A DNA stretch of 64,000 nucleotides from a virus (lineage: Duplodnaviria; Caudoviricetes): positions 1 to 64,000 of IMG/VR virus record IMGVR_UViG_3300021387_000025. One strand, written 5' to 3'. The position numbers were made by a program, and so were the translations under genes. Shown piece after piece: positions 2,386 through 18,166 of this stretch. Under the pieces are notes generated by a model. The model had not been told where the DNA came from and searched no databases. It saw nothing but the letters and a program-made list of their open reading frames with translations. Every line of letters starts with the position of its first letter. The stretch's first letter is position 1.

Positions 2386-3328
2386 TGTAATTATACCAGT
2401 ATATCATTCGCGTGAAACGTTACCAAATACTCTACTTTCATTATTAAATCAAACAACAAAAAATTTTTTTATTACGATAGTAAATGATTGTGATGGAGAA
2501 AATTATACAGATATAATAAATAAATTTACCAATGAGGGATTGCGCATTGTCTATCTGCCATTAGCAGAAAATGTTGGTCCAGGTTTAGCCCGACAAGCTG
2601 CAATGGATGCAGATAATACGTCTGAATTTTTTATGTTATGCGATTCAGATGACTTACTAATGCCGCAAGCAGTTGAATCATTATTAAGAAGCATCACTTT
2701 AAAAGAGCTAAACATCGTTGCTTCAAGTTTTTTACGACATGAAAAAGATCATAACTTGTTGCAAGACGTTACTGAAACAGCTATTACATGGTGTGCAGGT
2801 AAAATTTATCGAGCCGAATATCTTAAGAAAAATAATATACGTTTTCATCCCTATCTTAGATTAAATGAAGATTCATATTTTAATGTTGTTGCTTGGAATT
2901 CCACGCAAAAGCGCGGGCAATTAAATGAAGTCACAGTTTTAGTAATGGACAATACTAATTCATTAACTCGTAAAGAAGGACGTGAAAAATTTTTTATCAA
3001 AGGCTGGGAGCAATATATTTTATCTCAAGTTGACGGACTGCAAGAAATATATAAACAAACTCTCACGATGAATCCGTAGATCGCCGCAAGAACATTGGTA
3101 TATTTATATCACGAAACAATGATTGCTATGAGTCTAAATTTACCACTAAATCAATCAAAAATTTACTTAAAAAAATTAAATAAGCATTGGATGAATGAAT
3201 GTATGAACAAAGCAGAATTTTGGAGAGAAGTGGCTGCTAGTTGTCAGGGTGCAATTACATTTAATAACACAATAATTTTTCCAAAAATTAGCTTTGATGA
3301 ATGGTTAAAATGGGGTAAAGAAGAATGA
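2378..3328 (+). CDS. Family 2 glycosyltransferase (TAG=Gln at 3077-3079)
   Basis: VIIPVY, IVNDC, GPGLARQ, DSDD and NEDSYF GT-A motifs. Track ORFs 2378..3079 and 3095..3328 are in the same frame. Confidence 0.85.
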
Positions 3329-3861
3329 GTATTTTTATAGTAAATGGCGCGCCAGGTAGCGGTAAAACTACCTTTGAATATTTTGTAGATGAAGCAGCTT
3401 ACAGATATGGTTATTCTGTTTTTATTGATTCAACAATTAATTTTGTAAAGTAGATTGCGGCGATATGTGGCTGGAATGGAGATAAAACCCCTAAAAATCG
3501 AAAATTCTTGTCAGATTTAAAGGATTTATTAACTTCTTGGGATGATGTTCCAATTAAAAAAATTAAACAAAATTTAGAAAATTATAAATCTGAATTGAGA
3601 TTAAGTAATTTAGATTTCAATCATTACGGAATTATTTTTATAGACTCTAGAGAACCTCAAGAAATTAAACGATTATGCAAAGAATTAAATGCAAAATCAA
3701 TTTTAATTGATAGAAAAGATGTAGACAAAAATGCTGTCAATTCTAATCATGCGGATTCAGAAGTTTATAATTATGAATATGATATTGTTATTGATAATAA
3801 TGGAACATTATCTGATTTAAAGAAAAAAGCAATTACTTTTATAGAAAAAGACCTCGTATAA
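3325..3861 (+). CDS. Deoxynucleoside monophosphate kinase-like P-loop protein (TAG=Gln at 3451-3453)
   Basis: ATG 3325 overlaps the previous TGA. NGAPGSGKTT P-loop, GWNGDK..RKFL, IFIDSREP and IDNNG motifs. Confidence 0.85.
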
Positions 3862-3878
3862 AACGAGGTCTTCTTTTT
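3846..3878. terminator. Bidirectional intrinsic terminator
   Basis: AAAAGACCTCGT-ATAAA-ACGAGGTCTTCTTTT between convergent genes. Confidence 0.8.
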
Positions 3879-4314
3879 AATCTTCTTCTGCTAAATCTTG
3901 GTAAGAAATTGTATCAATTTCCCATTTACAGATCTCTTGATAAAGAAGCGTTGCATAACTATTACCTTTTAATTGTTTAACATAAATTTCATATGTCTTA
4001 TCTGCACTTTTTCTTTCATATAATGGAATTTTTTTCTAAGCTTGATATTTATAATAAATATTTTTTAAAGTGTTTCGGCATTGCTATCTTGATACCTCTT
4101 GAATAGCTTCAAAACCAGTGGCAAGTTTTTCAATATCAGCTTTAATAGCAGAAATATCCTCTGCCTAATGCTAATTTTCATCTTTTAAATCTTTGGTTTC
4201 TTTTGCAAATATACTTTTTATAGCTGCGCGGCCGCCTTTGGTGCAAAGTGTAATTAAAGAAATTGCAGAAAGCACAAGACCAATAATTGCAGCAATGTTT
4301 TTAATAGTTTCCAT
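3877..4314 (-). CDS. Putative holin-like membrane protein (4 TAG=Gln); absent from the ORF track
   Basis: METIKNIAAIIGLVLSAISLITLC transmembrane segment, then a coiled coil and a Y..LKGNSY motif like Gram-positive phage holin-type proteins. AAGGAGG SD; ends in TAA. Confidence 0.65.
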
Positions 4315-4345
4315 TAAGAGCCTCCTTATACCATTCCTCATAAAG

Positions 4346-4372
4346 AAGTAGAGAAAGCTCTCCTCTTATTTA
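4346..4372 (-). promoter_or_regulatory. Putative phage-specific (late) promoter TAAA-N17-CTACTT
   Basis: The same spacing recurs at 18507, 32206 and 50372. Lies about 32 nt upstream of the holin-like ATG. Confidence 0.6.
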
Positions 4373-4752
4373 AGTTTTTGATTCCTCCAAGCCTCGTCAT
4401 TATGAAATTTTGAACGAGCTAAAAATTTATCTTGAAACAAATCATCTAAAATTTGAATGTTTCCAATTTCCCAATATGGTATACAATAAATTTTTATATC
4501 ATTTGCAAGACAATAGGAGATTTTGCGTCTATCGCGCTCTTGTGCTTTGAGAAAATCAGAACGATTTGAATAGAATTGCTTTGTATATATATAATGCTGT
4601 GCGCCATTGACTTCTATAGCACACTTTTGAGTTGGAAGATAAAAATCAAATCTATATAAGCCATTATATAGATCTTTAAATTGTTTTTCCTATTCGAATT
4701 GTACGCCCGATTCAACAAGAATCGAGCGCACAACTTTTTCAAATGTACTCAT
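4366..4752 (-). CDS. DUF559/Vsr-like PD-(D/E)XK endonuclease (1 TAG=Gln)
   Basis: FE-Q-EKQF, YRFDFYLP, IEVNGAQHY, RDRRK..YC and IPYWE. The start overlaps the ligase stop. Confidence 0.8.
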
Positions 4753-5870
4753 CATTCAACTTGTTCTAAACCGCATTCCTCTGCTGTTTTATCACTCCTA
4801 ATTTGTTTTAAGCGTGGATGCCTAATTCCTGTAAATTTATTATTACCGTCTCGCATTAATTGCATTCCAGTAATTTCAGCCACTTTTCCTTTATAATTTT
4901 TCCAATTTTGAAGCATTTCTTCAGTTAATCCACTTAATGAACCAATAGGAACATATTTTTTATTATTTGAATTGTATAATCCAATAATAAAACTACCTGC
5001 CCATCCATGCCAATAAGGTTTAGTTACAGGTTCAATAGGTTCTCCATCACTATAATGTTTATAATAATCACCATTTAACTTTTCACCCGTCATAACATTT
5101 TCCCAATAGGGCCAAGTGGTGATTTCTTTTCCGCCATAAAGACGAGTGGGAGGATTAGCACCAAGAATAACAACGTCAATATTTTCTTGAAGCTCTTTTT
5201 TAACTTTAAATGTCTGGCGCGCAGGACGCTTACCAGGCTGATAGCATGTTCCTTTTTTAGTGATTACAATGCCTTCACCGCCTTCTGCGAGAATCGTCTG
5301 AAGCCGATTCCAAAGCTCAACTCCTTCGAAATATTCAGCCCACTCATGATAATTTTCGCCATAAGCCCGCCATCCGAGAATTAATTCTTCAACTCTATCT
5401 TCAATTGGCATCTTAAGATATGATTTTCCGTCATAAGCAAGAACATCAAATATATAATAATGAAGTTTTTCCCCGGCTTCTTGGCGCGCGATGGCTTTTT
5501 CTTTTAAGCACCCCATAATAGATGTTACATGATTAGAGCCTTCGTTATTTGGAAAATAGATTTCGCCAAGTAAACAAGTTCCATTTGGAAGATCATCAAA
5601 GAAAGACTGAAGCTGCGGAACCCACTCAATTTTGTTAAGATAATCGCCTGATACGCTTTTACTGCGCCCAAGTAATTCCATATTACCATCTTCATCTTTT
5701 ATAAATTTATAAAAAGCGCCATCCATCTTTCGCGCGCCAAGGTAGTCTCCAGAAAAAATAGCGTTGTGAACTTCTTTCTTTTTTCGATCTTCATCCCATG
5801 TCGAAGGCGGCGTCCAATACTTTTGTGCTGGAAGTTCGTGAAAATCAATATTATCAATATAACCCTTCAT
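4752..5870 (-). CDS. ATP-dependent DNA ligase
   Basis: RKMDG adenylation motif, LLGEIY, YIFDVL, EGIVI, KVK and IRHPR. SD before ATG 5870; no TAG. Confidence 0.9.
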   Translation of the reverse strand: MKGYIDNIDFHELPAQKYWTPPSTWDEDRKKKEVHNAIFSGDYLGARKMDGAFYKFIKDEDGNMELLGRSKSVSGDYLNKIEWVPQLQSFFDDLPNGTCLLGEIYFPNNEGSNHVTSIMGCLKEKAIARQEAGEKLHYYIFDVLAYDGKSYLKMPIEDRVEELILGWRAYGENYHEWAEYFEGVELWNRLQTILAEGGEGIVITKKGTCYQPGKRPARQTFKVKKELQENIDVVILGANPPTRLYGGKEITTWPYWENVMTGEKLNGDYYKHYSDGEPIEPVTKPYWHGWAGSFIIGLYNSNNKKYVPIGSLSGLTEEMLQNWKNYKGKVAEITGMQLMRDGNNKFTGIRHPRLKQIRSDKTAEECGLEQVE

Positions 5871-5898
5871 TATAATACTCCTTTCATTTTCTAAAATA

Positions 5899-5965
5899 AT
5901 TATACAATATTTTTTCAAAAAAATCAAATTTGAAACTTGAAAATTATTTGAAGTTTTGATATAAT
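5899..5965. promoter_or_regulatory. Back-to-back sigma-A-type promoters
   Basis: Minus strand TTGATT-N17-TATAAT (5899-5927); plus strand TTGAAA-N17-TATAAT (5937-5965). Confidence 0.75.
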
Positions 5966-5997
5966 GAAATTATAATAAATAATGGAGATTTAATAAA

Positions 5998-6969
5998 ATG
6001 ATATATTTATGTATTTTATGTGCAGTTTTAATAGTTGCTTTAATAATTGTTATTAATGTTTATAATAAAAATAAAAAAATTAATTTTGAATAGTATAAAG
6101 AAAAATATGCAGAATAGTTAAAATAGTAGTATGAAAGTATTATTACAGCGACTCATCAGACTGATTCAGAGCTAAAAACTAAAAAAGAAAAACTTAATTC
6201 AATTGAGAAAGAAATAGAATCAAAAGCTAAATTTAACAAAACAGTTCATCAAATGCGTGAGCAAGAATTGGACCGTTTAATTGAAGAAGAAAAGGAGCAT
6301 AAACTTGCATTAGTAGAACTTGAAGTTTAGGACTGGGCGGCCTCTGCGCAAGAAGTCGCAAGAGATAATTATAATTAGCTTTTAATTGATTAGGAAAGAG
6401 AAATTCGTACAAAGCAAGAACAGGTTAAATATTTAATTACATAGCTGGCAGAATAGCAATCTAAAATAGAAGCAGTAAATAAAGAAATTCTTCGAAGGCG
6501 CGCCATAGAAGAAAAACATGAATTTTATTGTATTTAGATTAGTGATAGTGCTAAAAATGATATAGCCATTTTAAATGAAATTAGACCAAAATTGTCAAAT
6601 CTTGAAATTTTTAACAAATTTATATATGATAATTATATTGCTAAACCAACAAAAGAAATGATTTAGAGAGTGCTAGCCGGTCGCAATCCATCTGGCATTT
6701 ATAAAATCACAAATATTGATACACACGAGTCTTATATAGGTAAATCTGTTAAAATTTCTGACAGATGGATTAATCATGTTAAGGGCGCGGTTGGTCTTAG
6801 CGGAATTGCAGAATCACAATTTCAACGAGCTTTAAAGAAATATGGAGTTGATAAATTTACTTGGGAAGTCTTAGAAGAAGTAAATAAAGATGAATTATCA
6901 GCCAGGGAAAAATATTGGATTACCTTTTATCAGACAAAAGAATATGGATATAATCAAAGGGAGGGTTAA
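5998..6969 (+). CDS. Membrane-anchored coiled-coil protein with a C-terminal GIY-YIG nuclease domain (11 TAG=Gln)
   Basis: MIYLCILCAVLIVALIIVINVY transmembrane helix, about 190 aa of E/K/Q-rich helical sequence, then GIYKITN..SYIGKS..RW..H..REKYWI..GYN. In frame with track ORF 6670..6969. Confidence 0.85.
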
Positions 6970-7979
6970 TGAATCTTTCAAAACTACAAGAACAAATTAT
7001 AAATTCAAAATATGACAGAATAGTTGTACTTTCAAGCGCGGCCAGCGGTAAAACTCGTTTGATGACGGAAAAAGTACGCCAATTATTACGAAATGGAGTC
7101 GATCCAAAAGAAATAGCTGTTATAACCTTTACAAACATGGCGGCCGCTGAGTTAAAAGAACGACTGGGAGAAGACTATAAAAGTGGTTTATTTGTCGGAA
7201 CCATTCACGCACTTGCTAATTATTTTTTACTATCTGCGGGGATTAATACTGGAGCTGTCTTAGATAACGAAGATTTTGATAAATTATTTTTTATGGTAAA
7301 ACAAAATTCAGCTTGTGTTAAGCACTTAGAATGGATTTTACTGGATGAAGCACAAGATTCTGATGAAATGCAATTTGAATTTTTATTTAAAATGATTAAT
7401 CCAAAGCATTTTTTTCTATGTGGCGACACAAAACAATGTATTTATCAGTTTAAAGGATCGGAGCCAGAATTGTTATTAGATCTTACAGAACAAGAAGATG
7501 TATATACATATAATATGAACGAAAACTATCGCAATGGTTCTAAAATTCTATCTTTCGCGCGCAAATTGATCCAACCAACAGGACAATGGGATACGTCAAT
7601 CCCTATGAGAGAAAATGAGGGAGAAGTATTTGAGACAAAATTTAATCCAAAAGGTATTATATATGAGATCAAAAAAGATCCTCAATACAATAATTGGGCA
7701 ATTTTATGTCGAACCAATAAACAAATTTCTCAAATCAGTGAGGTTTTAAGAGGTGCTGGGCTTCCATTCGAAACCTTCCGTCAAGGGGATCTAACTAAAG
7801 ATGAATTAGTTACAAAATTAAAAGAAAACACAATCAAAGTTTTAACAGTACATAGCGCGAAAGGATTGGAATGGAACAATGTAATTGTTTATGGAATGAA
7901 ATATTACAGTCCAGAAGAACGAAATGTTTGCTATGTCGCAGCAACAAGAGCAAGAGATCTGTTAATTTGGATAAAATAA
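6969..7979 (+). CDS. Compact UvrD/Rep-family SF1 helicase
   Basis: AASGKT, ITFTNMAA, GTIHA, LDEAQD, GDTKQCIYQF, ENYR, TVHSAKGLEW and YVAATRAR motifs; no TAG. Confidence 0.92.
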   Translation: MNLSKLQEQIINSKYDRIVVLSSAASGKTRLMTEKVRQLLRNGVDPKEIAVITFTNMAAAELKERLGEDYKSGLFVGTIHALANYFLLSAGINTGAVLDNEDFDKLFFMVKQNSACVKHLEWILLDEAQDSDEMQFEFLFKMINPKHFFLCGDTKQCIYQFKGSEPELLLDLTEQEDVYTYNMNENYRNGSKILSFARKLIQPTGQWDTSIPMRENEGEVFETKFNPKGIIYEIKKDPQYNNWAILCRTNKQISQISEVLRGAGLPFETFRQGDLTKDELVTKLKENTIKVLTVHSAKGLEWNNVIVYGMKYYSPEERNVCYVAATRARDLLIWIK

Positions 7980-8007
7980 AGGAGAGGCTTTAAGCCCCTC
8001 CTTTTTA
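7978..8007. terminator. Intrinsic terminator between convergent genes
   Basis: AAAGGAGAGGCTT-T-AAGCCCCTCCTTTTT. Confidence 0.75.
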
Positions 8008-8634
8008 TTATGGCGTATAACTTCCGTCTAAAATATCATCAATAGTCTCTGGCTAAATTGCACCAGGAATGTTTGCCCCATCTGATATTGTAGTAGTTGT
8101 AGTACCATTCTAATCTGTAATAGTTATTGTTGCTACACCATCGTTTTTTACAACATTCGCAGTCGGCGAATATCCATTTGTAACATTAAAAGTATTGGTA
8201 GTACTGTCCGTTAATGTAATTGTATACGTATCAGTTAAACCACTAGAACTAGTTTTAGAAATATTATCTATATTACTACCGGTATTACCTTTTTCACCCT
8301 TGGCCCCTCGAATCGAACCAGTAGTATAAGAAGTACCATCCGTAAAATTAATAGTTAAAGTATAATCCTAATTTAAAACTGCCGAAGAGATACCATTACC
8401 AGTATCACCTTTGTCGCCTTTATCACCCTTATTACCTTTTTCACCTTTATCTCCAACAGGTACTTCAAAATGGAAGTGCTTTCTTAGATATTCAACTATT
8501 GGTTCTGATCCAGGTGGTAACATCTCAATATCAGCAGTAAAGTCTAAAGATACTGGTCCAACAAAATTATCCATATTAAATTCAATTGGATTTGTATTAG
8601 ACTATATCGACATTGGTATAATTATATTATTCAT
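8008..8634 (-). CDS. Collagen-repeat tail fibre/appendage protein (4 TAG=Gln)
   Basis: GDKGEKGNKGDKGDKGDTG repeats and DYTLTINFTDG / TITITD-Q-NGTTT modules. Frame open from ATG 8634 to TAA 8008. Confidence 0.8.
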
Positions 8635-8939
8635 TGTATCACCCTGTTATGTAAATTATGATCTATGTTAATTATCTGAATGTCTGTTGAAGCACGGCTT
8701 CCATCATCATAGAAAAAATTTATTTGGCAATATAAACGACCTACTGGAATAGATAAAGTTTCTTCTTGAGTTAAGGAAACATAAATTGAGTCTGAATTAA
8801 TTTCTAATTCAGAATCGTCTTTTTCAATTAATGGATCTTTTTTATTCGCCGAAAAAGTTAAAATTACCTAGTCAGCAGTTGTTGGATCAAAATCTGGAGG
8901 AAAGGTAAAAGTAAAAGTAGGAGTTGTACCTTTATACAT
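8631..8939 (-). CDS. Small structural adaptor-like protein, MYKGTTPT type (1 TAG=Gln)
   Basis: GTTPTFTF...LTQEETL; AAGGAGG SD; TGA overlaps the next ATG. Confidence 0.7.
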
Positions 8940-8952
8940 TTAAAGACCTCCT

Positions 8953-9942
8953 TTAATCTATATATTTGCTTGAACAGAATCCATAAGTAGAACCAAATAT
9001 TACATAATCCCAAATTCGTCCATCACTGGCAGGCTTCTAATCACAAATTTGAACAATCGCACCTTTTGGCATAACCGTAAGACCTTTATAGAAAGCTCCG
9101 CATCCTTTTCTAAGCCAAAGATCAGTGGTTACCTTTCCTGTTTTTTGAGGAGATTTACGAAGAACATATTGCTTTTCAATCCAGCCTATATGCACATTTG
9201 CAATTTTAATTTGCCATCTATCTTTTCCCTCTCCAATCACTTCAAAGAGATTGGTTAAACCTAGCGCTGGCCAAGCTGCTAATAATGTAGAACCATTTTG
9301 ATCAGCGTATACTGGAACTGTTGCTTTACCATAAACTTCTCCAACCCATCCATCAAATGGAACTGGTTGCGGATTTGGATTTAATTCTGCCCACAATTGA
9401 GTTGTTGGTCCATAAGGAGAATAAGCACCTGTATAGTCTACAACACGACTTTCTCCAGATCTTTCCCAAGCACGATTTGAAATTGGCTCAAAGAGAATTC
9501 CTGCGCGACCTTCACGAATCGCTTTATCAGTTGATTCCCAACCGATGTGCATCGCAAGTCCGTTACCTACATCAAGGCCTATATGGCGGCCGGCACCACC
9601 CCAAGTAGTAAATAAAATTGAACCTGTTGGACCTGCTGCGAATGTATTATATTTTGAGCAATTATTAATTTGTCCGACTGAGTATTGATGATCTCCAGTA
9701 CAAACCCAACCAACAAAACCAGAGCAATCATCAGCCATGTGTCCAAGAGAATTCCGAACGATCTGGTTTTTCTCTTCAGCAGTGTAGCGCGCGAAGTAAG
9801 CCGGCTCTGCAGCAAAATAATTTCTAATTTGTGCTTCAGAAGTTAATCTAACATTCTTTGCACCATATAAATAAACATAATCATGCGATCTATAAGCCGC
9901 AATTGCTCTGTCAACAACCGTTGACCATTTTGTTTTTGCCAT
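8953..9942 (-). CDS. Endolysin: NlpC/P60-like peptidoglycan hydrolase with SH3b-like domains (TAG=Gln at 9037-9039)
   Basis: YLYGA, DCSGFV and HIGL catalytic motifs. Readthrough completes the last SH3b-like domain (WDYVIFGSTYGFCSSKYID). Confidence 0.8.
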
Positions 9943-10035
9943 TTTAGCCTCCTATAATATTTTTCATAATAGCTAATAATATGACTATTAAGCTATTAAA
10001 AATTAATTCTGGTAAATTAGAACTAATTTTAATTA

Positions 10036-11163
10036 TTAAGCAAAAGCTTTGACTAAGTAACTTCTATTACCAACAGCCACTGGAATTACACAAGAGCTAC
10101 TAGATACATAAGCTGTAGTCGATGAACGTGTGCATGCCCAGTATTGTCCAGCTTGCATAGCCACTACATATGTACTAATACTTGAATCATAACAAGTTCG
10201 ACGAAGAGTCTCGTTAGCATCTGTCACTAAAATAGTAGATGGTGTGAATCCAGGATTAAAACTCACATAATATAATGTTGATGGATTGCCTCCGGCATTA
10301 GTAGCACATGGAAAAGATCTTGTTGATGAAGCTGTGAGTGTTGCTGAATAAGCATATCTGATTCCGGCAGTCCCTGTAACGCTCCAAACGTTTGAACTGC
10401 CATTTGAAATTGATATAGTTACCCCACTCTTTATATTCGCGGCAGCCAAGTTTGACTATGATAGCGCGCCAAGAGTAATATTGGATGTAATATATTTTGG
10501 GGCAGACACAAGTGTTTGTGCAGAAGTGGTTGCATATTTTGCACCACCTGTTGACTAGTTAGGTATAGCACCAACTGTGATAGCTCCAGTGCAATAAGTA
10601 CCAGCACTAACAGCGGTTTGTGCAGAAGTAGAAGGAGTTACGGTAGTAGCTGCCTTAGTAGTTAATTGCTTGGTATTGCTTCCATTAACAGTAATTGTTC
10701 CTGCTGTTCCAGAACTTACATATCCAGCAGATACAGTAGGTGTAACTGATTTTGTTCCGCTATTAGACGCTGTAATTTTGCCAGCAGAATCAACACTAAT
10801 TGATGGTGCAACTGTAACTGTAGTTGCAGGTGTTGTTGCAGAACCGGATGATACCGATTTGCTTGCAGCTGAAGCATAATATCCAGCAGGTGCTGTCACA
10901 GTCGCGCCAGATGCTGTAAGATCCGTAGAAGATTTAGACGCTATTGTCCCTGTTGCTTGTGTGCCATCAGATGTATAAAATACTTTTGGACTTAATACAT
11001 CACTTGCGGTTGCAGTAGTATCGCTAATATCAATGCCAGCTTCTATGGCTTCAATATATTCTGGAAAATCATCAGCAGGAATTTCTTCGGTTGATCCAGT
11101 TTTTGCACGAATTGAATCAGCTATATCTGAAAATAAACTTGTTAAACTATTATGTACTGACAC
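10036..11163 (-). CDS. Ser/Thr-rich tail fibre-like protein (2 TAG=Gln)
   Basis: LTSLFSDIADSIRAKTG N-terminus, TATASDVLSPK and LAAANIKSGV motifs. Joins track ORFs 10555..11163 and 10036..10449. Confidence 0.75.
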
Positions 11164-11178
11164 TCTAGACCTCCATAT

Positions 11179-11844
11179 TTAATAAGAATTTCTCATTGCT
11201 CCTACAACTAAATTTGCCACATATTCGATGGCTGATTGAACGTCACTTCCGTAAACAGAGGCACCCGTCCACGGTATCTATCTTGCGTTTGGCACACCCG
11301 AAATATATCCTGTATCCACAGTATTTATTATATTATCAATTGTCTCATCTGATATTGAACTATAATTTGGTATTTTTCCGTCAGTTCTTACGTGATAATT
11401 TGTTCCATCATAAAATACCAAATATGTTCCAGCTGGCATTGTCCAATTTGAATCAGAAGATGGCAAACCATTAATATAAACAGGTATAGCACCTTTATTA
11501 TTTACATTTAAAGTAAATGCTCCAATAACAGTATTTGAATTAGTTAATGTTAACATAAAATACTAATTAGTAAGCAAGCTATAACCACTTAGTGATGCAG
11601 CCTTGTTTGGTGTTGCTGAACTAGAAGTACAATATGCAGAAGGTATTGTATCGGTATTAGTATCACTTGTCCAATAAACACTTGAACCATTACTTTTTAA
11701 TACTTGTCCATTGGTACCGGGACCATATGTTGTTCCACCTGAAGAAGTAGGAGCATTTATTGTTGTTAATTGCGCTTCATTACTGAATATTTCCCCAACA
11801 AACCGAGAAGGACCGGACACTAAAAGATCTTTTAATTGCGCCAT
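11179..11844 (-). CDS. Tail fibre-associated protein (2 TAG=Gln)
   Basis: Joins track ORFs 11563..11844 and 11278..11556 in frame. MAQLKDLLVSG start, GTNGQVLKSNG repeat, TAA at 11179. Confidence 0.75.
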
Positions 11845-11899
11845 AAATTTATCTCCTTTCTCTCATTTTTATTATAATCTAAAATTGTGGAAGTCAGAT

Positions 11900-12475
11900 T
11901 TAATATTCATATATTTGACCCCCTTCAACAACACTTAGTTTATTAAATCCAACTGGATCAAATCCTTCCCAAAAAGTATCTGAAATTAATTGCCCAGTTT
12001 TTGAAATAGAAATTTTATTTGTAGTATCTGTAATTTCTCTAAGACTTAAATGATAAATTTTTGCGGTCGCATTAGAGGCAGAACTACCACTCCAGTTATT
12101 TAAAATTCTTAATCTAATATAGGCTGTTTTATTTGAATTAGATGAAGAAATTACTTGATTTAAATTAACAGTACCTCTAACTCTTGTTTTGCTATGTGCA
12201 GTATTACTTGTACTTATTTGATAAATGCAACAAGAATTAGAACCAGTTGCCTTGTTTACATCATATCTTTCTATACCAATATAAAAATAATTTCCTGTAT
12301 CATTTTCATATGTAAAATCATATTCAAAGGTATGTGAAGGATCTTGTATTGGAATATATGCTTCTAAGGGTGCTGGCCAAATATGACCAATAAGAAGAAG
12401 ATAATTTTCTTCTAATTTTATAGATGTCCCATTTGTCTTTACAGAGCCGAGGCCTTGAAGAAGTTCTTGACTCAT
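11900..12475 (-). CDS. Hypothetical structural protein, beta-rich
   Basis: 191-aa ORF whose start overlaps the previous stop; lies in the fibre cluster. Confidence 0.65.
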   Translation of the reverse strand: MSQELLQGLGSVKTNGTSIKLEENYLLLIGHIWPAPLEAYIPIQDPSHTFEYDFTYENDTGNYFYIGIERYDVNKATGSNSCCIYQISTSNTAHSKTRVRGTVNLNQVISSSNSNKTAYIRLRILNNWSGSSASNATAKIYHLSLREITDTTNKISISKTGQLISDTFWEGFDPVGFNKLSVVEGGQIYEY

Positions 12476-14280
12476 ATCTCTACCACCTCCCTCGCATAAA
12501 CATTTCCTTTATTATCTATCGAAGCAGAAGTATTATATAATTCTTTTATATCATCGGCAGAAAGGGCTGTCGCATATACTCTAAAATCACTTTCTTGTCC
12601 ATTAAAATATGGTCCAGAAGGATTCATACCATTAGCTTCACATCCTAAAAATAATCTAGAACTATTTATATTATAATATATGCCATATGAAGTATAGGAT
12701 TTTGTTTGATATAATTCTCCATCTAAATAACAGCTACATCCAGTTGTTTCATATACATAAGTAAACATATGCCAGCCAGAAGTAATATCTGTTTTTAAAA
12801 TAGCCGCTCTTGAATTAGTATCAATATATGCTGTTGATGTTTGTCCAGCATTGGTATATACACATACTGAGAATGTTAATGAATTTGTTACAGTATTTTC
12901 AATATTAAATCCACCACCTTCAGTACACGAATATAATCTATGACCATTCCAAGAGGTCCAATCATTCATATAAGCCCAGATATTAACAGTAAGAGCGGTA
13001 GATCCCTATGCCATCCATTTATTATCATCAATTTTAATATATGATGAACTACCATTGAAATTTGCGGCCGTGCTATAACGAGGACTTGGACTAGACCATG
13101 CGATCGCATTAGCGGTCGCCACATGGTTATATCCAGAACAATCTTCAACTATATTTGAAATAAAACTGTCTGGAACCCAACCAGTAAATTCACTACCTTC
13201 TTCTACTTTCATATTCCACCAATTTATGGTTACGACTGTGCTACCATCACTATAAGAATTAGATCTTAATGAAATATACTACTATGAACTTGACAATGTA
13301 ATTGTCCATACGTGAGTATTACCAATTTTTCTATAATTATAATTTGAACTGTTTAAATTTATAGCGGTATCACGTTGACCATTCTACCAGTTTTTGCTAG
13401 TTCCAGTATTACAAACATAAGCCCACATAGTAAAATATTTATAACTTGGGTCAACACCGCCAGTATTATGAGCATTATTTAACGTACCATCACATTCTAC
13501 TGAAATTGTATATGTGGTAGATGGTTTCGCTTCAAAAGCACTATTGGTTATCCACTGATATCCATCTTTTGCAGATTTACTAGTAGTCCAAGGAGAAGAT
13601 TTTATATACGTATTTTTACAAGGTACTAAATTAGGATTACCTAATCCATTATTATCCAATTTATAATGCAACACAAGCCCGCGCGCAATTTCTTTTACTT
13701 CTTTTGCGGAAAGACAATGATCATAAATACGAAAATCATTTATATTTATATCTACTCCACTGTCACCAATCTAAAAATTACCGGTCTATATATAATGGTC
13801 TGTATAGACTCCTGTAGTATGCCCTACCAATGCACCATCTATATAAAAATCACTTGTTCCATTCAAATAACTAATACTAAAAGCAAGATGATGCCAAATT
13901 CCAACTGAAAAATCTTTGCCTGAATTAGAATTAGGGGAACCCGCAAACCACACTCCAACTTTAGTACAGTTAGTATAGAATTCTTGCCTAGAATATGTAT
14001 TAGTGCTTCCGTTAGTTGAATACCATCTAATTCCATCTAACCAATTTGTAGACCAGGCATTATTTACCCTAACCCAATAAGCAAACGACATTTCTTTTTT
14101 TCCAATCAGAGATGGAACGCTTATTGTATTAGTTATCTTTGTAAGTAATAGACTTGATTTACCAATTTTACTAGAAGTAGTGTCCCAACTATTATCACTA
14201 CCTATTCCATTTGTAATCACATTTGCCAATCCCTAATTTTTTAAATCCCCATCCAGGGGAAGCCAAACTTGTAAACTCAT
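12472..14280 (-). CDS. LamG/concanavalin A-like lectin-domain tail protein with two LamG domains (TAG=Gln)
   Basis: MSLQVWLPLDGDLKN-Q-G, WHHLAF..YIDG, NDFRIYDHCLS, WHMFT..YLDG and SDFRVYATALS. Four track ORFs lie in one frame. Confidence 0.85.
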
Positions 14281-14292
14281 TTAGCTACCCCC

Positions 14293-15237
14293 TTATGTGA
14301 ACACAAAATTCAAAACTTCTAAAGTAGCATCATATTCTAACTAAACTTTTTTAGTAGGAGTGGTTGCCCCACTGCCATTACCAATAGTAAGATCTTTTAC
14401 TACAGGTTGTTTGTCATACGCAGCCGCCTAAGTAGCAGCAACGTTTGCCCAATATATATCTGGCAACCTCGCAAAAGCAAAAGTACCTGATCCAATCGTA
14501 GACGCTGCCAAACTATTAATTGTATGAGTATGAGTCCCAGCAGCAGTAACATGCCCAGCCGCATCATAAGTAACATACGGTACGGCTAAAGTCGCGCCAG
14601 ATGTCGCTGAAGAAGTACCAGCTGTTCCAGCAGTGACCGAGGTTGCATGTCCAATAGTAAATGTGTCAGAACCTGCAGTAGAGCTATTGTTCGCCGCGAC
14701 CTAAATCCATTTATTTCCAGGATTTATTGTCAATAACTCATTATAAGTAGAAGATTCAGCAGTAGATGTATTTGGAGTAATTGCAGTTGTCGCTGTAGAA
14801 GCTGTACCAGCTTTAATTTTTCCAAATCCCGCATCACGATTATTTGTGTCATAATAAGCGTCACAAACCCATCTATTATCAGTAGTAGCTGTGCCACTTA
14901 TTTTTATGTCCCCAGCCTTATAATAAGTCATAAAAATGGATCTACCAGCGCCATAATGAGTAGTTAATCTACTAGTATGAATATAGCAATTTATAGCGCC
15001 AGTAGTAGTTTCATCATCTAACGTAAGATTAAGAGTTGCATTGCCGCTACCAGCATAAGGTAAATAATAATTAATAGTCAGACCAGAATATAATGCACTA
15101 ACGCCATGCAAATTACCGGTCCATGAACCAGTAACAGCGGTCTATGTGCCAATAACAGTGTATACGCCGCTTTTATAACTATCCTTTAAATCATAGCTTG
15201 TGCCATTCGGTAATTTAATTTTACTAATATTCGCCAT
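14293..15237 (-). CDS. Tail fibre-like protein (4 TAG=Gln)
   Basis: MANISKIKLPNGTSYDLKD start, YDAAGHVT motif and a C-terminal YDATLEVLNFVF. Includes track ORF 14701..15111. Confidence 0.8.
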
Positions 15238-15264
15238 TTATACCTCCTTTAATAGCGGTATAAA

Positions 15265-16641
15265 TTACTCGCCTTTAGTAACTGTAATTGATGTATCGCT
15301 CTTAAGAACTGTAACTTGATCCTTACTATTCCAAGCAACCGCGCCATTAGTTGCTGCCGCAGTTAAATAAGCGTTTGTCGCGCTACTTTCTACAACAGAA
15401 ACCTTACCGGTACCACTTGAAGTTCCCTTTGAAACAGTAATTGTGGGCTGTGTGATCGTAAAAGTAGAACCGGATCCAATAACATTTGCTGTACCATTAG
15501 CTGTAGCATCGGTAGCGACAGAAATGACACCAGTCCCAGCCGTTGCACCAGTCGCAAGAGCGATCGTAGGTTGCGTAACTGTAAAAGTAGCATCTGCGCC
15601 AATAACAGAATCTGTAGAAGAAGCACTAACATCAGTAGCTACCTCTGCCCCGCCACTAGTTGCAAGAGAGCCGGTCGCAAAAGTAGTTGCAGTAGAATTT
15701 TTAACGGGAACAGCTACATCTGAAAAAGTATATTGAGTTGTAGACTAAGTATTCATAGAAGCTGCCCCAATTGTTAAAACTTCATCAGTTACACTGCAAC
15801 CTTTCAACCAATCTGTATTATTAGTAGTTGCTGTACCGGCGCCAGTGGCTGTTGTCTAACTAGTTCCAGCAGTAGCTTTAGAAGCAGTAGTTGTGGTGCT
15901 ACCAACACCATAAATCGTACTTGTTGCCAAATGACTTTTTGTAGCACTTACGCCAGTAACAGCAGTTACAGTATCTTTAGAATTCCAAGTTGTGTTGGCC
16001 CCCGATGCGGTAGCTTTGATATTTGTTTTTGTAGCGCTCACTCCAGTCAATACTGTCTTTTGGTCTTTAGAATTCCAAGCTGTGTTCGCGCCAGTCGCAC
16101 TTGCGCCGATATAGTTCGTAGATTGGCTCAAAGATCCAACCACACTAACTGCGCCAGTTGAACTAGTCTCAGATGAAGAAAGCGTTACACTTGGCTGTGT
16201 AACTTTAAAAGTAGCATCACTACCAATTACTGTATCAGTTGACTTATTAAGAGTTACATTAGTAACGACACCAGACAAATCAATTAAAGTATCGCCAATC
16301 TTCTCCCAAGTTTTTGTACTTTCTCCAATAGTAACATATTCATCAAATAAATCTAATGTTCCAGCTTGAGTCTTGGAATAAATAAGATAAAACTTACCAA
16401 CAGTGTCCGTACCTGCCTCTAATGTACCAGTCGCGCTACTTGCGCCATTATTATAGTAAACAACCACTCCAGCAGGAATTGTAGCTAACTTCGCAGTCGT
16501 TGGCGCTGAAGTTGCAGCATATTCTGCAGCAGTCCATACAATGTTAAACGATACACCACCAGCGATCATCTATCTGGCTACAGCATCTTTTATATCATAT
16601 TCATTACCAGAGGGTAATTTAATTTTACTAATATCCGCCAT
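15265..16641 (-). CDS. Thr/Ser/Ala-rich repeat fibre protein (3 TAG=Gln)
   Basis: MADISKIKLPSGNEYDIKD start, three WNSKD repeats and three VIG..ATF.VTQP-type repeats. Confidence 0.8.
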
Positions 16642-16650
16642 TATTTCTCC

Positions 16651-17016
16651 TTAATTTCTGCTAAAAATTAAAGTTTCGCCCTATAATTCATCATTTAATA
16701 TTTCATAGGCGTCATCAATGTCAACTTTATGATTCCAAAATTGACGATCTTCATTACTAACATGAATTGAAGAATCGTTAATATGTGTTAATAATTTATC
16801 TCTTATATCGTCTCCCACAAATGGAAGATCCTGAACATAAGCCTTACCATCACCTATTTTAAGAGTAGGTATATTTATTACTGTTCCGTTTTGTTCAATC
16901 TACTACCCATCTAAATAAATAATAACTTCTCCTTCAAGTGGTATAAAGCCTCGCGCAGCATTCCAATTTGCAGTAGTATCTCTTTTTAATTTTATTCTTG
17001 TATTTATTGTACTCAT
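16651..17016 (-). CDS. Mtd/hyaluronidase N-terminal-like fibre anchor domain protein (3 TAG=Gln)
   Basis: RIKLKRDTTANW..PLEGE..KIGDG..DLPF and HV...DRQFWN motifs. Confidence 0.75.
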
Positions 17017-17038
17017 TTCATACCTCATAATATTACAA

Positions 17039-17839
17039 TTAAGTAATAACTGTAGTACTTGTGCCGCAATCTATTAACATTCCTTCTTCTATTGAAATTA
17101 CGTTATTCGTAATATCAATTCCATTTCCTGCTGCGTAAGTACTGCTATGGGCTGAAATATAATTAATTAAATCTGCCTGATCTGTTATATTTCCTGTAAT
17201 ATTTCCCCACTCAGCAGAAGTTTGAGTATTAGAAATAATTACTTTTCCCTATTGATTAATTGCTATAGATATTCCATCGCCGGCATTTTCAAAAGTAAGT
17301 TTACTTTGAATATTTAAATCTTCAAGACTACTATTCCCTTCTAAAGTTGTATTGTTTATTGATGGTTTATTAGTTAATGAATTATAATTAGTTGAGGCCA
17401 TACCATTAATTATTTCAAAATCTGTAACATGGCCATCTGTAAATGTTATTCTATAAGTATCGACCCTTACATTTTCATCAGTATAACGACTATTTATTTT
17501 TTCAATAAAAGCTATACCAATACCAATGTCTCCTTTTTCGCCCTTATCACCTTTTTCTCCCTTTTCGCCCTAAGATCCCTGCTCTCCCTGCGGGCCGGGT
17601 TCTCCTTTAGGTCCTTCTGGTCCCCTGATAGACACAGGATCAGGATTAGGTAAATTACCATCATTTGTCCAAGAAATAATTCCTTCCGAAGAAACATCTG
17701 GTATAAAAGTCGCGCCCTTGATGCCAGGAATGATTTCTGGCTTAAATTCTACCCCAGTGACTGGATCTTGAATTATATCTACTATCGTTTCTGGAGTATT
17801 CAAAATTTCAACTTCTACAAGCTAACGAGGCTTCTTCAT
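17039..17839 (-). CDS. Collagen-repeat fibre protein (3 TAG=Gln)
   Basis: GPEGPKGEPGPQGEQGS-Q-GEKGEKGDKG, NYNSLTNKPSIN, WGNITG and YAAGNGIDI motifs. Confidence 0.8.
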
Positions 17840-18166
17840 TTATCCCTCCTCTGGCTTACTAAATAACGTTGGATGCATTCGTAAGGTCACAATAGGAGTT
17901 TCAGGTATCGCGCCGCTTATTAATGTTATTTTTATATCCATATAAAACAATTCATTTTCGGCAAAAAGCCATGTATCTTCTTCTGTGAATGGTATTTCAA
18001 AAGTCTAACATTCATCATTATAAGTTACATCGCCTGGATAATTCTTAATTAGTATATCTGGGGCTAAATGGGATTTTTCCTATTTAAAAAGAAAAACAAT
18101 TGATTGAATATCTTCGCTGTTGAGTTTAATTCGAACGGGCAGGGTCGTCGTTGTTCCATTTTTCAT
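17840..18166 (-). CDS. Small structural adaptor-like protein, MKNGTT type (2 TAG=Gln)
   Basis: GTTTTLPV...FTEEDTWLF resembles 8631..8939 and likewise precedes a collagen gene. Confidence 0.65.

What the first reader, a model, noticed from the sequence alone, without database searches (positions are those of the whole stretch)
5937..7979. Amber-locked membrane-anchored GIY-YIG nuclease coupled to a TAG-free UvrD-like helicase
Seen in sequence: a sigma-A promoter drives a 323-aa protein made of a transmembrane helix, a long coiled coil and a GIY-YIG domain. All 11 TAGs lie between the anchor and the nuclease domain, and the stop overlaps the helicase start (TAATG). Before recoding, only a 31-aa membrane peptide could be made. 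A membrane anchor is not expected in a homing endonuclease. Inference: a membrane-tethered nuclease/helicase pair, transcribed early but armed only after the code switch, for host DNA degradation, superinfection exclusion or tethering of phage DNA. This is the best candidate here for an undescribed two-gene system.
Basis: partly seen in the sequence, partly recalled or inferred. Interest (0 to 1): 0.8.

Follow-up and report, generated by a model that had tools for sequence, protein, structure and literature searches.

The report
Membrane-anchored phage nuclease with partner helicase
A large group of gut and rumen phages carries a conserved two-gene unit, a DNA-cutting enzyme tethered to the inner face of the cell membrane plus a small DNA-unwinding helicase; it has the same layout as the recently described bacterial anti-phage nuclease SNIPE but is not related to it, and its job is still unknown.

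Summary
ORF 5998-6969 encodes 323 aa with 11 in-frame TAGs at the stated places. It overlaps a TAG-free 336-aa UvrD-like helicase gene by TAATG and sits behind the best sigma-70-type promoter of the region.

The protein is real and conserved. The region before the nuclease alone finds 969 protein clusters. Of 126 full-length hits, 121 have an N-terminal membrane helix (N-out, C-in). The nuclease is I-TevI-like and keeps all catalytic residues.

The helicase link is strong. 77 of 80 helicase-anchored phage loci have the nuclease gene next door, and five of them have the gene order swapped. In relatives the pair lies in the replication module (ligase, pair, gyrB, gyrA).

The "amber lock" is only partly supported. 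At least 48 of 62 pairs have no TAG. The absence of TAG from the nuclease domain is not significant and is not conserved. In 12 of 14 recoded relatives, though, the nuclease gene is richer in TAG than the helicase gene.

The closest known system is SNIPE/PD-lambda-1, which shares the architecture but failed every homology test, so this is an analogue and not a member. I found no paper on this family. First readers of this scan noted the same pair in another genome.

Function is inferred, not shown: a membrane-confined nick-and-unwind module.

The parts
5937..5965 (+). Sigma-70-type promoter with extended -10 (TTGAAA, 17 nt, TG-n-TATAAT) for the two-gene operon
   Evidence: Best match in 4500-9000, 11 of 12 plus TG. 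The motif class occurs 31 times in the genome against 0 for the control. Near-consensus promoters sit upstream of the gene in most relatives.
5984..5987 (+). GGAG ribosome-binding site, 10 nt before the ATG of the nuclease gene
   Evidence: Read directly from the sequence.
5998..6969 (+). Gene for the 323-aa membrane-anchored GIY-YIG nuclease (TAG = Gln, 11 TAG)
   Evidence: Full-length homologues run down to about 32% identity.
5998..6063 (+). N-terminal transmembrane helix (residues 1-22), followed by a Lys-rich stretch. Predicted topology: N terminus outside, the rest cytoplasmic
   Evidence: Kyte-Doolittle 3.37. 121 of 126 family representatives have such a helix. K+R averages 0.13 before the helix and 4.2 in the 12 residues after it.
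6064..6510 (+). Long helical stalk (to residue 171), probably a coiled coil. Its membrane-proximal half is variable; the motif E-V-x-E-W-A-x-S-A-Q-E is conserved at residues 108-119
   Evidence: AlphaFold2 gives one helix for 2-171, with pLDDT above 90 over residues 50-150. Heptad contrast, conservation.
6448..6690 (+). Family-specific conserved helical domain (residues 151-231) that forms one compact predicted unit with the nuclease domain. It matches no Pfam model
   Evidence: Alignment A2 has 65% mean column identity. Its profile finds 969 clusters. The model of residues 151-323 has pLDDT 89.8 and pTM 0.82. No Pfam hit.
6691..6966 (+). I-TevI-type GIY-YIG catalytic domain (residues 232-323). 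Y235, Y246, G248, R256, H260, E304 and N319 are invariant
   Evidence: Pfam E 3.4e-6. The A1 profile matches I-TevI at E 2e-11. VIA-align 2 Z 14.0, rmsd 2.0 over 90 residues. Invariant columns.
6958..6965 (+). AGGGAGGG ribosome-binding site of the helicase gene, lying inside the last codons (Q-R-E-G) of the nuclease gene
   Evidence: Sequence. GGAGG-like sites precede the helicase ATG in nearly all relatives.
6969..7979 (+). Gene for a compact 336-aa UvrD/Rep/PcrA-like SF1 helicase, TAG-free
   Evidence: Pfam UvrD-helicase 2.5e-35, UvrD_C 1.1e-22. PDB Rep, GajB and UvrD at about 1e-22. Invariant Walker A, DEAQD and motif VI columns.
7978..8004 (.). GC-rich stem-loop followed by a T run. A likely two-way terminator between the operon and the convergent tail-fibre block
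   Evidence: Terminator scan, 12 pairs. RNA fold -14.3 kcal/mol, z -2.0.

Best explanation
What is shown:
- 5937-8004 is a self-contained two-gene operon that belongs to the DNA replication and metabolism module of phAss-1-like siphophages. These phages probably infect Firmicutes.
- Gene 1 encodes a single-pass membrane protein whose whole functional part faces the cytoplasm. It has a long helical stalk of roughly 20 nm, a conserved helical adaptor domain, and an intact I-TevI-type GIY-YIG nuclease that lacks the C-terminal DNA-binding region a homing endonuclease needs.
- Gene 2 encodes a minimal UvrD-like helicase.

What is inferred:
- The two act as a membrane-confined nick-and-unwind unit. 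The tethered nuclease nicks or cuts only DNA that comes to the inner face of the membrane.
- The most likely target is the DNA of a competing phage as it is injected, as SNIPE does for bacteria.
- The helicase would load at the break and unwind the DNA so that exonucleases can destroy it.
- Tethering would keep the enzyme away from the phage's own replicating DNA.

On the TAG codons:
- In TAG-recoded members such as this one, the full-length nuclease can be made only once the phage's tRNA-Sup(CUA) works. The helicase has its own ribosome-binding site and no TAG, so it is not delayed.
- This delay is a lineage-specific overlay, not part of the system.
For: - Architecture and topology are conserved across hundreds of clusters.
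- Catalytic residues are invariant and the fold matches I-TevI.
- The protein ends with the catalytic domain.
- Gene adjacency holds in 23 of 23 nuclease-anchored loci and 77 of 80 helicase-anchored loci, and survives an order swap.
- The operon has its own promoter and terminator. The helicase has its own ribosome-binding site.
- The pair lies between ligase and gyrB/gyrA in relatives.
- SNIPE experiments show what a membrane anchor on a GIY-YIG nuclease does. It prevents self-cleavage and restricts cutting to DNA being injected. The TM-less form is toxic (PMC13190303).
- TAG bias: 115 TAG to 204 CAA/CAG in the nuclease genes against 20 to 166 in the helicase genes of 14 recoded relatives.
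Against: - No experiment exists on any member.
- Exclusion and defence genes are usually sporadic, fast-evolving accessories. This pair is a near-core gene pair in a fixed place in the replication module, and its adaptor and nuclease domains are strongly conserved.
- SNIPE needs no helicase.
- TAG-rich coding suggests late production in recoded phages, whereas exclusion functions are usually early.
- Three relatives keep the helicase without the nuclease, so the helicase has a role of its own.
- The family shows no homology with SNIPE, so the analogy rests on architecture alone.
Confidence: 0.35

Rival explanations
1. Host-chromosome degradation or nucleotide scavenging, as with T4 endonuclease II. 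The nuclease nicks host DNA and the helicase unwinds from the nicks. The phage RecJ-like exonuclease (30432-32189) and others then recycle the nucleotides for the phage's own Pol III-type replisome.
For: - The pair lies in the nucleotide and DNA-metabolism module, next to RNase H, a dNMP-kinase-like gene, ligase, RecJ, NrdD and gyrase.
- It is near-core in the clade.
- T4 EndoII is the second-best structural match: Z 9.0, rmsd 3.0 over 104 residues.
Against: - A membrane tether would keep the enzyme away from most of the nucleoid.
- No evidence was found that the phage marks its own DNA. There is no thymidylate-synthase-like hydroxymethylase, and the family-2 glycosyltransferase is not of a known DNA-modifying type.
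- Host shut-off nucleases act early, but here the gene is TAG-rich.
Confidence: 0.25
2. A replication, recombination or DNA-maturation factor working at the membrane. The stalked nuclease would make nicks or resolve branches in phage DNA held at the membrane (compare phi29 p16.7, a TM + coiled-coil + DNA-binding organiser). The UvrD-like helicase would load at those nicks, as PcrA does at Rep-made nicks on rolling-circle plasmids.
For: - Fixed position between ligase and gyrase, and strong purifying selection on the adaptor and nuclease domains.
- The obligate helicase partner.
- The genome has direct terminal repeats, so it must process concatemers.
- Late (TAG-rich) expression would fit a maturation role.
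- The phi29 and PcrA comparisons come from general knowledge, not from a tool.
Against: - The phage has a DnaB-type replicative helicase and a full replisome.
- Three lineages have lost the nuclease but kept the helicase, so it is not essential for replication.
- No origin-like or nick-site repeats were looked for or seen.
Confidence: 0.22
3. The TAG pattern is a neutral by-product and not a gate. TAG simply accumulates in the fast-evolving, Gln/Lys/Glu-rich stalk, where changes to Gln are tolerated. The well-conserved helicase changes too slowly to gain TAG.
For: - TAG positions differ between relatives. The nuclease domain carries TAG in 9 of 14 and the helicase in 6 of 14.
- Within this gene the N-versus-C difference is not significant, p = 0.09.
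- Most family members have no TAG at all.
Against: - Per Gln-class codon the bias is large and recurrent: 36% against 11%, with nuclease above helicase in 12 of 14.
- Genes in this genome are bimodal, either TAG-free or TAG-rich, and this tracks function.
- TAGs cluster just after the anchor, including a TAG-TAG pair at residues 43-44.
Confidence: 0.4
4. It is a mobile homing endonuclease, or a soluble 99-aa GIY-YIG enzyme made from an internal start near 6658-6670, and the upstream frame is not really coding.
For: - The catalytic domain is closest to homing endonucleases.
- A table-11 ORF, 6670-6969, exists.
Against: - The full-length frame is conserved in hundreds of clusters, including at least 48 pairs with no TAG.
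- There is no DNA-binding tail after the catalytic domain.
- Synteny is fixed.
- 0 of 23 relatives have a ribosome-binding site before Met221, which is Leu in the distant clade.
Confidence: 0.03

Closest known systems
SNIPE (PD-lambda-1), a bacterial and prophage anti-phage nuclease (Saxton et al., Nature 2026, PMC13190303)
   Same: The domain order and topology are the same: N-terminal transmembrane helix with a tiny outside tail, an elongated cytoplasmic region, and a C-terminal nuclease of the GIY-YIG superfamily. The conservation gradient is also the same, with a variable membrane-proximal part and a conserved nuclease.
   Different: - There is no detectable homology: hhalign probability 6.6% for the whole protein and 0.2% for the middle domain.
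- There is no DUF4041.
- The nuclease is I-TevI-type (PF01541). SNIPE relatives carry the T5orf172/MUG113 type.
- The PD-Lambda-1 model matches only the anchor and stalk of one member, at E 0.077.
- This gene lies in the replication module of large phages, not in defence islands or prophage cargo sites.
- It is almost always paired with a helicase, which SNIPE lacks.
I-TevI and related GIY-YIG homing endonucleases of phages
   Same: The catalytic domain matches at 30% identity, Z 14.0, rmsd 2.0 over 90 residues, with all catalytic residues kept.
   Different: - No linker or C-terminal DNA-binding domain.
- An N-terminal membrane anchor and stalk instead.
- Not mobile: position and partner are fixed across relatives down to about 32% identity.
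T4 endonuclease II (DenA)
   Same: A phage-encoded GIY-YIG enzyme that is not a homing endonuclease. It is the second-best fold match, Z 9.0.
   Different: DenA is soluble and has no helicase partner. Sequence identity is only 12%.
Gabija (GajA nuclease + GajB UvrD-like helicase)
   Same: A nuclease paired with a UvrD-like helicase. The helicase here scores best against GajB models, E 8.9e-51.
   Different: - The nuclease partner is GIY-YIG with a membrane anchor, not an OLD/TOPRIM ATPase-nuclease.
- The helicase is about 160 residues shorter than GajB.
- The pair is encoded by a phage.
Stop-codon recoding as a timer for late genes (Borges et al., bioRxiv 10.1101/2021.08.26.457843)
   Same: A nuclease gene inside an early-type transcript is rich in recoded stops, while replication genes avoid them. 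That paper proposes the same logic for a TGA-rich intron endonuclease of Agate phages.
   Different: Here the recoded codon is TAG (read as Gln), the gene is a conserved membrane nuclease, and the contrast lies between two genes of a single operon.

Membership tests
SNIPE / PD-lambda-1 | N-terminal transmembrane anchor, with the rest of the protein cytoplasmic | tested here: met
   A hydrophobic helix lies within the first 60 residues in 121 of 126 representatives. The positive-inside bias is 0.13 against 4.2 K+R. Topology is predicted, not measured.
SNIPE / PD-lambda-1 | DUF4041 (PF13250) middle domain | tested here: not met
   No PF13250 hit in P0001 at E up to 0.1, none among the families listed for 48 members at E up to 1, and none in the six frames of the whole phage genome. 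Genuine SNIPE relatives all carry PF13250. hhalign of the middle domain against the SNIPE alignment gives probability 0.2%.
SNIPE / PD-lambda-1 | T5orf172/MUG113-type nuclease domain (PF10544, PF13455) | tested here: not met
   PF10544 finds nothing in this genome at E up to 1 but does find phage T5. The domain here matches PF01541 and I-TevI instead.
SNIPE / PD-lambda-1 | Match to the full-length PADLOC PD-Lambda-1 model, or profile-profile homology | tested here: not met
   E 0.077, covering only residues 4-145 of P0001. The model is not among the 25 families most often matched by the 48 members. hhalign of A1 against A5 gives probability 6.6%, in the stalk only.
SNIPE / PD-lambda-1 | Cleaves phage DNA during injection and is harmless to resident DNA while tethered | not testable with these tools
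   Needs expression, phage challenge and localisation experiments.
GIY-YIG nuclease superfamily | GIY and YIG motifs plus the catalytic Arg, His/Tyr, Glu and Asn on the alpha/beta fold | tested here: met
   Y235, Y246, G248, R256, H260, E304 and N319 are invariant in 48 sequences. PF01541 hits all 48 of 48. Fold matches.
GIY-YIG homing endonuclease (I-TevI type) | Flexible linker and C-terminal sequence-specific DNA-binding domain | tested here: not met
   The protein ends at residue 323, right after the catalytic domain. All conserved extra sequence is N-terminal.
GIY-YIG homing endonuclease (I-TevI type) | Mobile: sporadic presence, inserted in or beside a target gene or intron | tested here: not met
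   The neighbourhood is the same in 77 of 80 helicase-anchored loci, and synteny with ligase and gyrase is conserved. True endonuclease insertions do occur between the two genes in some relatives.
UvrD/Rep/PcrA SF1A helicases (gene 2) | Conserved helicase motifs in RecA-like domains 1A and 2A | tested here: met
   PF00580 2.5e-35, PF13361 1.1e-22. Rep, UvrD and PcrA at about 1e-18 to 1e-22. Invariant GK(T/S), DEAQD, and H-S-x-K-G ... T-R-A columns.
UvrD/Rep/PcrA SF1A helicases (gene 2) | Accessory 1B and 2B domains | tested here: inconclusive
   336 aa against 650-720 aa. The matches cover residues 3-95 and 121-266 of the query against 3-106 and 222-380 of UvrD/Rep. This suggests both insertions are missing or minimal, but no structure was predicted for the helicase.
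Gabija | GajA (OLD-family ATPase/TOPRIM nuclease) next to GajB | tested here: not met
   The only neighbour in the operon is the GIY-YIG protein, and no GajA model hit it.

The most novel reading that the evidence does not exclude
A phage-encoded weapon that evolved independently of SNIPE. A stalked, membrane-tethered GIY-YIG nuclease works with a dedicated minimal UvrD-like helicase to destroy DNA at the membrane, either rival phage DNA entering an already infected cell or membrane-attached host DNA. In TAG-recoded phages its production is gated by the genetic-code switch. This would be a near-core function of a whole clade of gut and rumen siphophages, and a second, convergent solution to telling self from non-self DNA by location.
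Probability: 0.3. Interest if true: 0.8.

Novelty: new variant of a known kind. Interest (0 to 1): 0.6.

Why it matters
SNIPE showed in 2026 that anchoring an unspecific nuclease to the membrane lets a cell tell incoming DNA from its own DNA by location alone. This family has the same layout but arose separately. It is carried by the phages themselves, sits in their replication module, and almost never appears without a small helicase.

If it excludes rival phages, it would show viruses using the same spatial trick against each other. If it acts on host or phage DNA, it would be a new kind of membrane-bound DNA-processing step in Gram-positive phage infection.

The family is very large (969 clusters at 50% identity) and has no name or Pfam model for its middle domain, so one experiment would annotate thousands of genes. 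The two genes of one operon also offer a clean natural test of whether stop-codon recoding times protein production.

Tried and rejected
- **Homing endonuclease reading.** Rejected: no DNA-binding tail and fixed synteny.
- **Internal start at 6658-6670.** Rejected: no ribosome-binding site in 0 of 23 relatives, and the Met is not conserved.
- **SNIPE membership.** Rejected after Pfam, PADLOC and hhalign tests.
- **First attempts to get a SNIPE sequence failed.**
  - Phage T5 has T5orf172 but no DUF4041.
  - tblastn with the T5 domain gave only T5-like phages.
  - The phage 186 int-cI region in E. coli genomes gave other cargo, DUF2511.
  - It worked at last through a MAG handle and a phylum-wide PADLOC search.
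- **The first genome-contig scan found no family member.** This was a limit of the two peptide patterns used. The helicase scan later found one 128.6-kb contig in a 'Bacilli' MAG that carries the pair. It is probably a binned phage.
- **ESM Atlas** returned only unnamed viral GIY-YIG clusters.
- **Fold search of the middle domain** gave only generic helical hairpins below Z 5. This does not show that the fold is new.
- **DNA modification as a self-marker.** No thymidylate-synthase-like gene was found, which is not conclusive.
- **Timing of the suppressor tRNA** could not be settled. No consensus extended -10 promoter lies upstream of it.
- **Literature.** Full-text searches found nothing on this family.
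Full report
**1. The observation**

With TAG read as Gln, 5998-6969 is an open frame of 323 codons. It has 11 TAGs at residues 32, 40, 43, 44, 111, 127, 132, 149, 153, 180 and 223. Under table 11 the frame ends after 31 residues, and the only standard ORF left is a 99-aa piece from GTG 6670.

The TAA stop shares its last A with the ATG of a 336-codon ORF, 6969-7979, that has no TAG.

TAG = Gln is supported inside this gene itself. Residue 180 is a TAG here and is Gln in at least 90% of 48 homologues, many from TAG-free genes.

The window is the first 64 kb of a complete 119,955-bp phage genome with direct terminal repeats. The only GenBank phage whose match extends beyond the GIY-YIG domain is phAss-1, of the 'Caudoviricetes code 15 clade'. 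That group is described as siphovirus-like, with probable Clostridia hosts (PMC10607447).

**2. Signals around the genes**

- TTGAAA-17-TATAAT with an upstream TG at 5937-5965 is the best promoter-like site between 4500 and 9000.
- The pattern TTGAMW-N14-15-TGNTATAAT occurs 31 times in the genome and 0 times for the reversed control. Most copies lie in the early region at 73-84 kb, and four lie in this window in front of operons.
- Most relatives have a near-consensus promoter 16-96 nt before the gene.
- A GGAG lies 10 nt before the ATG.
- The helicase has its own AGGGAGGG site inside the last codons of gene 1. Nearly all relatives have a GGAGG-like site there too. So the helicase can be translated even when ribosomes stop at codon 32 of gene 1.
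- A 12-pair stem-loop with a T run (7978-8004) closes the operon against the convergent tail-fibre genes.

**3. The protein**

- Residues 1-22 are strongly hydrophobic.
- AlphaFold2 with 48 sequences gives one helix for residues 2-171, two helices at 183-226, and an alpha/beta domain at 232-316. Mean pLDDT is 83.7.
- The stalk has no Pro or Gly, is rich in Glu, Lys and Gln, and has moderate heptad periodicity: 9 of 300 shuffles reach the observed value. A coiled coil is likely but not shown.
- Residues 151-323 modelled alone form one compact unit, with pLDDT 89.8 and pTM 0.82.
- The C-terminal domain matches the I-TevI catalytic domain:
  - profile E 2e-11;
  - Foldseek E 6e-5;
  - VIA-align 2 Z 14.0, rmsd 2.0 over 90 residues.
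- T4 EndoII comes next at Z 9.0.
- The residues that make a GIY-YIG active site are invariant: Y235, Y246, G248, R256, H260, E304 and N319.
- The chain ends with the catalytic domain, so the DNA-binding tail of homing endonucleases is absent.

**4. It is a large family with a fixed architecture**

- A word-indexed search found 637 clusters at 90% identity. The best 120 are 291-348 aa apart from two shorter fragments, and nearly all start with a hydrophobic helix.
- A profile of the middle domain alone (residues 151-231, no nuclease, no anchor) finds 969 clusters at 50% identity with E up to 1e-3, and 309 with E up to 1e-10.
- Among the 126 listed hits of at least 290 aa, 121 have a transmembrane helix in the first 60 residues. 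At least 113 have the GIY...YIG motif near the C terminus.
- Basic residues average 0.13 before the helix and 4.2 in the 12 residues after it. The N-terminal tail averages 2 residues. This predicts N-out, C-in, so the nuclease faces the cytoplasm.
- The middle domain matches no Pfam model. Its fold matches are only generic helical hairpins.

**5. The helicase link**

- Anchored on the nuclease, 23 of the 24 IMG/VR loci retain DNA after the gene, and all 23 have the helicase next.
- Anchored on the helicase, which is an independent scan, 74 of 80 loci have the middle-domain gene on the same strand beside it. Three more show its C-terminal part at a contig edge.
- In about ten loci one extra gene lies between the two. 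Where I checked, it was an HNH or GIY-YIG endonuclease.
- In five loci the order is reversed: the helicase comes first and a 260-aa anchor-stalk-middle-nuclease protein starts 5 nt after it. Adjacency that survives rearrangement argues for a functional link.
- Three loci have the helicase without the nuclease. One of them has a 170-aa anchor-plus-helix protein in its place.
- The helicase has all SF1A motifs. It is about half the length of UvrD, apparently without the 1B and 2B insertions. That last point is inferred from the matched ranges.

**6. Genomic setting**

In most relatives the order is RNase H, glycosyltransferase, dNMP-kinase-like, HNH, ligase (opposite strand), nuclease, helicase, gyrB, gyrA.

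In this genome a 10-kb block of tail-fibre and virion genes (8008-18166, minus strand) separates the helicase from gyrB.

The phage has its own DnaB-type helicase, Pol III alpha, RecJ-like exonuclease, ligase and NrdD. So the pair is part of the DNA-metabolism core and not a typical moron.

**7. The amber question**

- Genes in the window fall into two classes. Replication genes have no TAG. Virion genes use TAG for 30-100% of Gln-class codons.
- Gene 1 belongs to the TAG-rich class: 11 of 22, and 3.4 TAG per 100 codons, the second highest in the window. The helicase belongs to the TAG-free class, 0 of 15. Fisher p = 0.0009.
- Inside gene 1, the lack of TAG in the nuclease domain (0 of 4 Gln) is not significant, p = 0.09. 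Residues 1-31 have no Gln at all.
- Among 62 distinct full-length pairs from relatives, 48 have no TAG in either gene. In some of these genomes TAG is plainly a stop.
- In the 14 pairs with TAG:
  - every nuclease gene has TAG (2 to 16);
  - 8 helicase genes have none;
  - the nuclease gene exceeds the helicase gene in 12 of 14 (sign test p = 0.013, not corrected for shared ancestry);
  - pooled counts are 115 TAG to 204 CAA/CAG against 20 to 166;
  - TAG lies inside the nuclease domain in 9 of 14.
- Whether that bias is selected or only tolerated cannot be told from sequence.
- The suppressor tRNA(CUA) heads a 29-tRNA array at 119,240-119,327 on the minus strand, with no consensus extended -10 promoter before it. 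Its timing is unknown.
- The idea that in-frame stops delay a nuclease encoded in an early transcript is already in the literature for TGA-recoded Agate phages (bioRxiv 10.1101/2021.08.26.457843).

**8. Comparison with SNIPE**

SNIPE (PD-lambda-1) has a transmembrane helix, DUF4041 and a GIY-YIG nuclease, with N-out, C-in topology. The anchor prevents self-cleavage, and the enzyme cuts phage DNA during injection (PMC13190303).

I tested membership directly.
- PF13250 gives no hit in this protein, none among the families listed for 48 homologues, and none in the whole genome.
- PF10544 gives no hit.
- The PADLOC PD-Lambda-1 model touches only the anchor and stalk of one member, at E 0.077.
- I then fetched true SNIPE relatives from Firmicutes genomes. 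I confirmed that 120 of their homologues carry PF10544, PF13455 and PF13250.
- I aligned 25 of them and compared profiles. The probability is 6.6% for the whole protein, in the stalk only, and 0.2% for the middle domain.
- The family is therefore an analogue of SNIPE and not a member.

**9. Mechanism**

Shown:
- a conserved, membrane-anchored, cytoplasm-facing protein with an intact nuclease site;
- a conserved helicase partner;
- one operon with a host-type promoter.

Inferred:
- the anchor confines an otherwise untargeted I-TevI-type nickase or nuclease to DNA at the membrane;
- the helicase extends the damage from the nick.

I rank the possible targets as follows:
1. exclusion of incoming rival DNA (0.35);
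2. host DNA degradation (0.25);
3. a replication or maturation role at the membrane (0.22).

The near-core status and strong conservation argue against a typical arms-race gene. The anchor and the SNIPE precedent argue for spatial self/non-self discrimination. None of these readings is excluded.

**10. Verdict**

This is a real, very widespread and unnamed phage gene pair. Its 'amber lock' is a lineage-specific overlay, and its claim of novelty must be read against SNIPE.

Two first-reader notes of this scan describe the same pair in another genome. I saw no follow-up on them.

Noticed in passing
L003-L025 helicase C termini; window 7950-7979: Most relatives' helicases end in a basic tail that finishes with an aromatic and often an acidic residue (for example ...KKKKSKTVNWE or ...RRTYF). 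It looks like a short docking peptide. The window's helicase stops about 12-20 residues earlier (...LIWIK) and lacks it.
   Followed up: no
L005 6865-7753; L010; L025 4322-4585; L034, L039, L041, L071, L072, L090, L097, L110, L111: In about ten relatives an extra gene of about 0.9-1.1 kb sits between the nuclease and helicase genes. Where checked it is an HNH or GIY-YIG homing endonuclease. The junction of the pair appears to be a recurrent landing site.
   Followed up: partly
window 8008-18166 (minus strand): A 10-kb block of collagen-like tail-fibre and virion genes lies between the helicase and gyrB. In most relatives gyrB follows the helicase within 0.3-3 kb, so this genome has a rearrangement or insertion here.
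   Followed up: partly
window 3877-4341 (minus strand): A 154-aa protein with a hydrophobic helix (residues 15-33), a coiled-coil stretch weakly like DivIC (E 7e-4) and 4 TAGs. It is conserved next to the HNH and ligase genes in several relatives. This is a second small membrane protein of unknown role in the same module.
   Followed up: no
window 8953-9942 (minus strand): A 329-aa protein with a weak C-terminal SH3_3 match (E 1.3e-3), possibly a cell-wall-binding lysis or tail enzyme.
   Followed up: no
genome 1514, 5937, 26632, 41815 versus 73509-84502: There are two flavours of extended -10 promoter. The 25 sites at 73.5-84.5 kb all have TTGAC at -35, nearly all as TTGACA. The sites in front of DNA-metabolism operons in this window have TTGAAA or TTGACT. 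These may be a strong early class and a weaker class.
   Followed up: partly
L026 4415-19327 (genome 104.4-119.3 kb, minus strand): An array of 29 tRNA genes. The TAG-reading tRNA (anticodon CTA, called Pyl by ARAGORN) is the first gene of the array, at 119,240-119,327.
   Followed up: partly
L115 (contig CAKPNG010000001.1, 128,615 bp, 'uncultured Bacilli' MAG from a Hadza gut sample): This phage-sized contig in a bacterial MAG carries the nuclease-helicase pair (3274-3993 and 4001-5053). It is probably a phage genome binned with its host, which would be a weak host hint towards Bacilli/Firmicutes.
   Followed up: partly
L060 1781-2293: At the position of the nuclease gene, one relative has a 170-aa protein with a membrane helix and a highly charged helix but no nuclease domain. 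It may be a decayed or alternative partner of the helicase.
   Followed up: no
L001 (phAss-1, OQ749652.1) 5485-6465: In the GenBank record of phAss-1 this gene is annotated as two separate hypothetical proteins (5485-5625 and 6031-6465), because the 8 in-frame TAGs were not read through. There it is followed by a small ORF and two tRNA-Sup(CTA) genes rather than by the helicase.
   Followed up: partly
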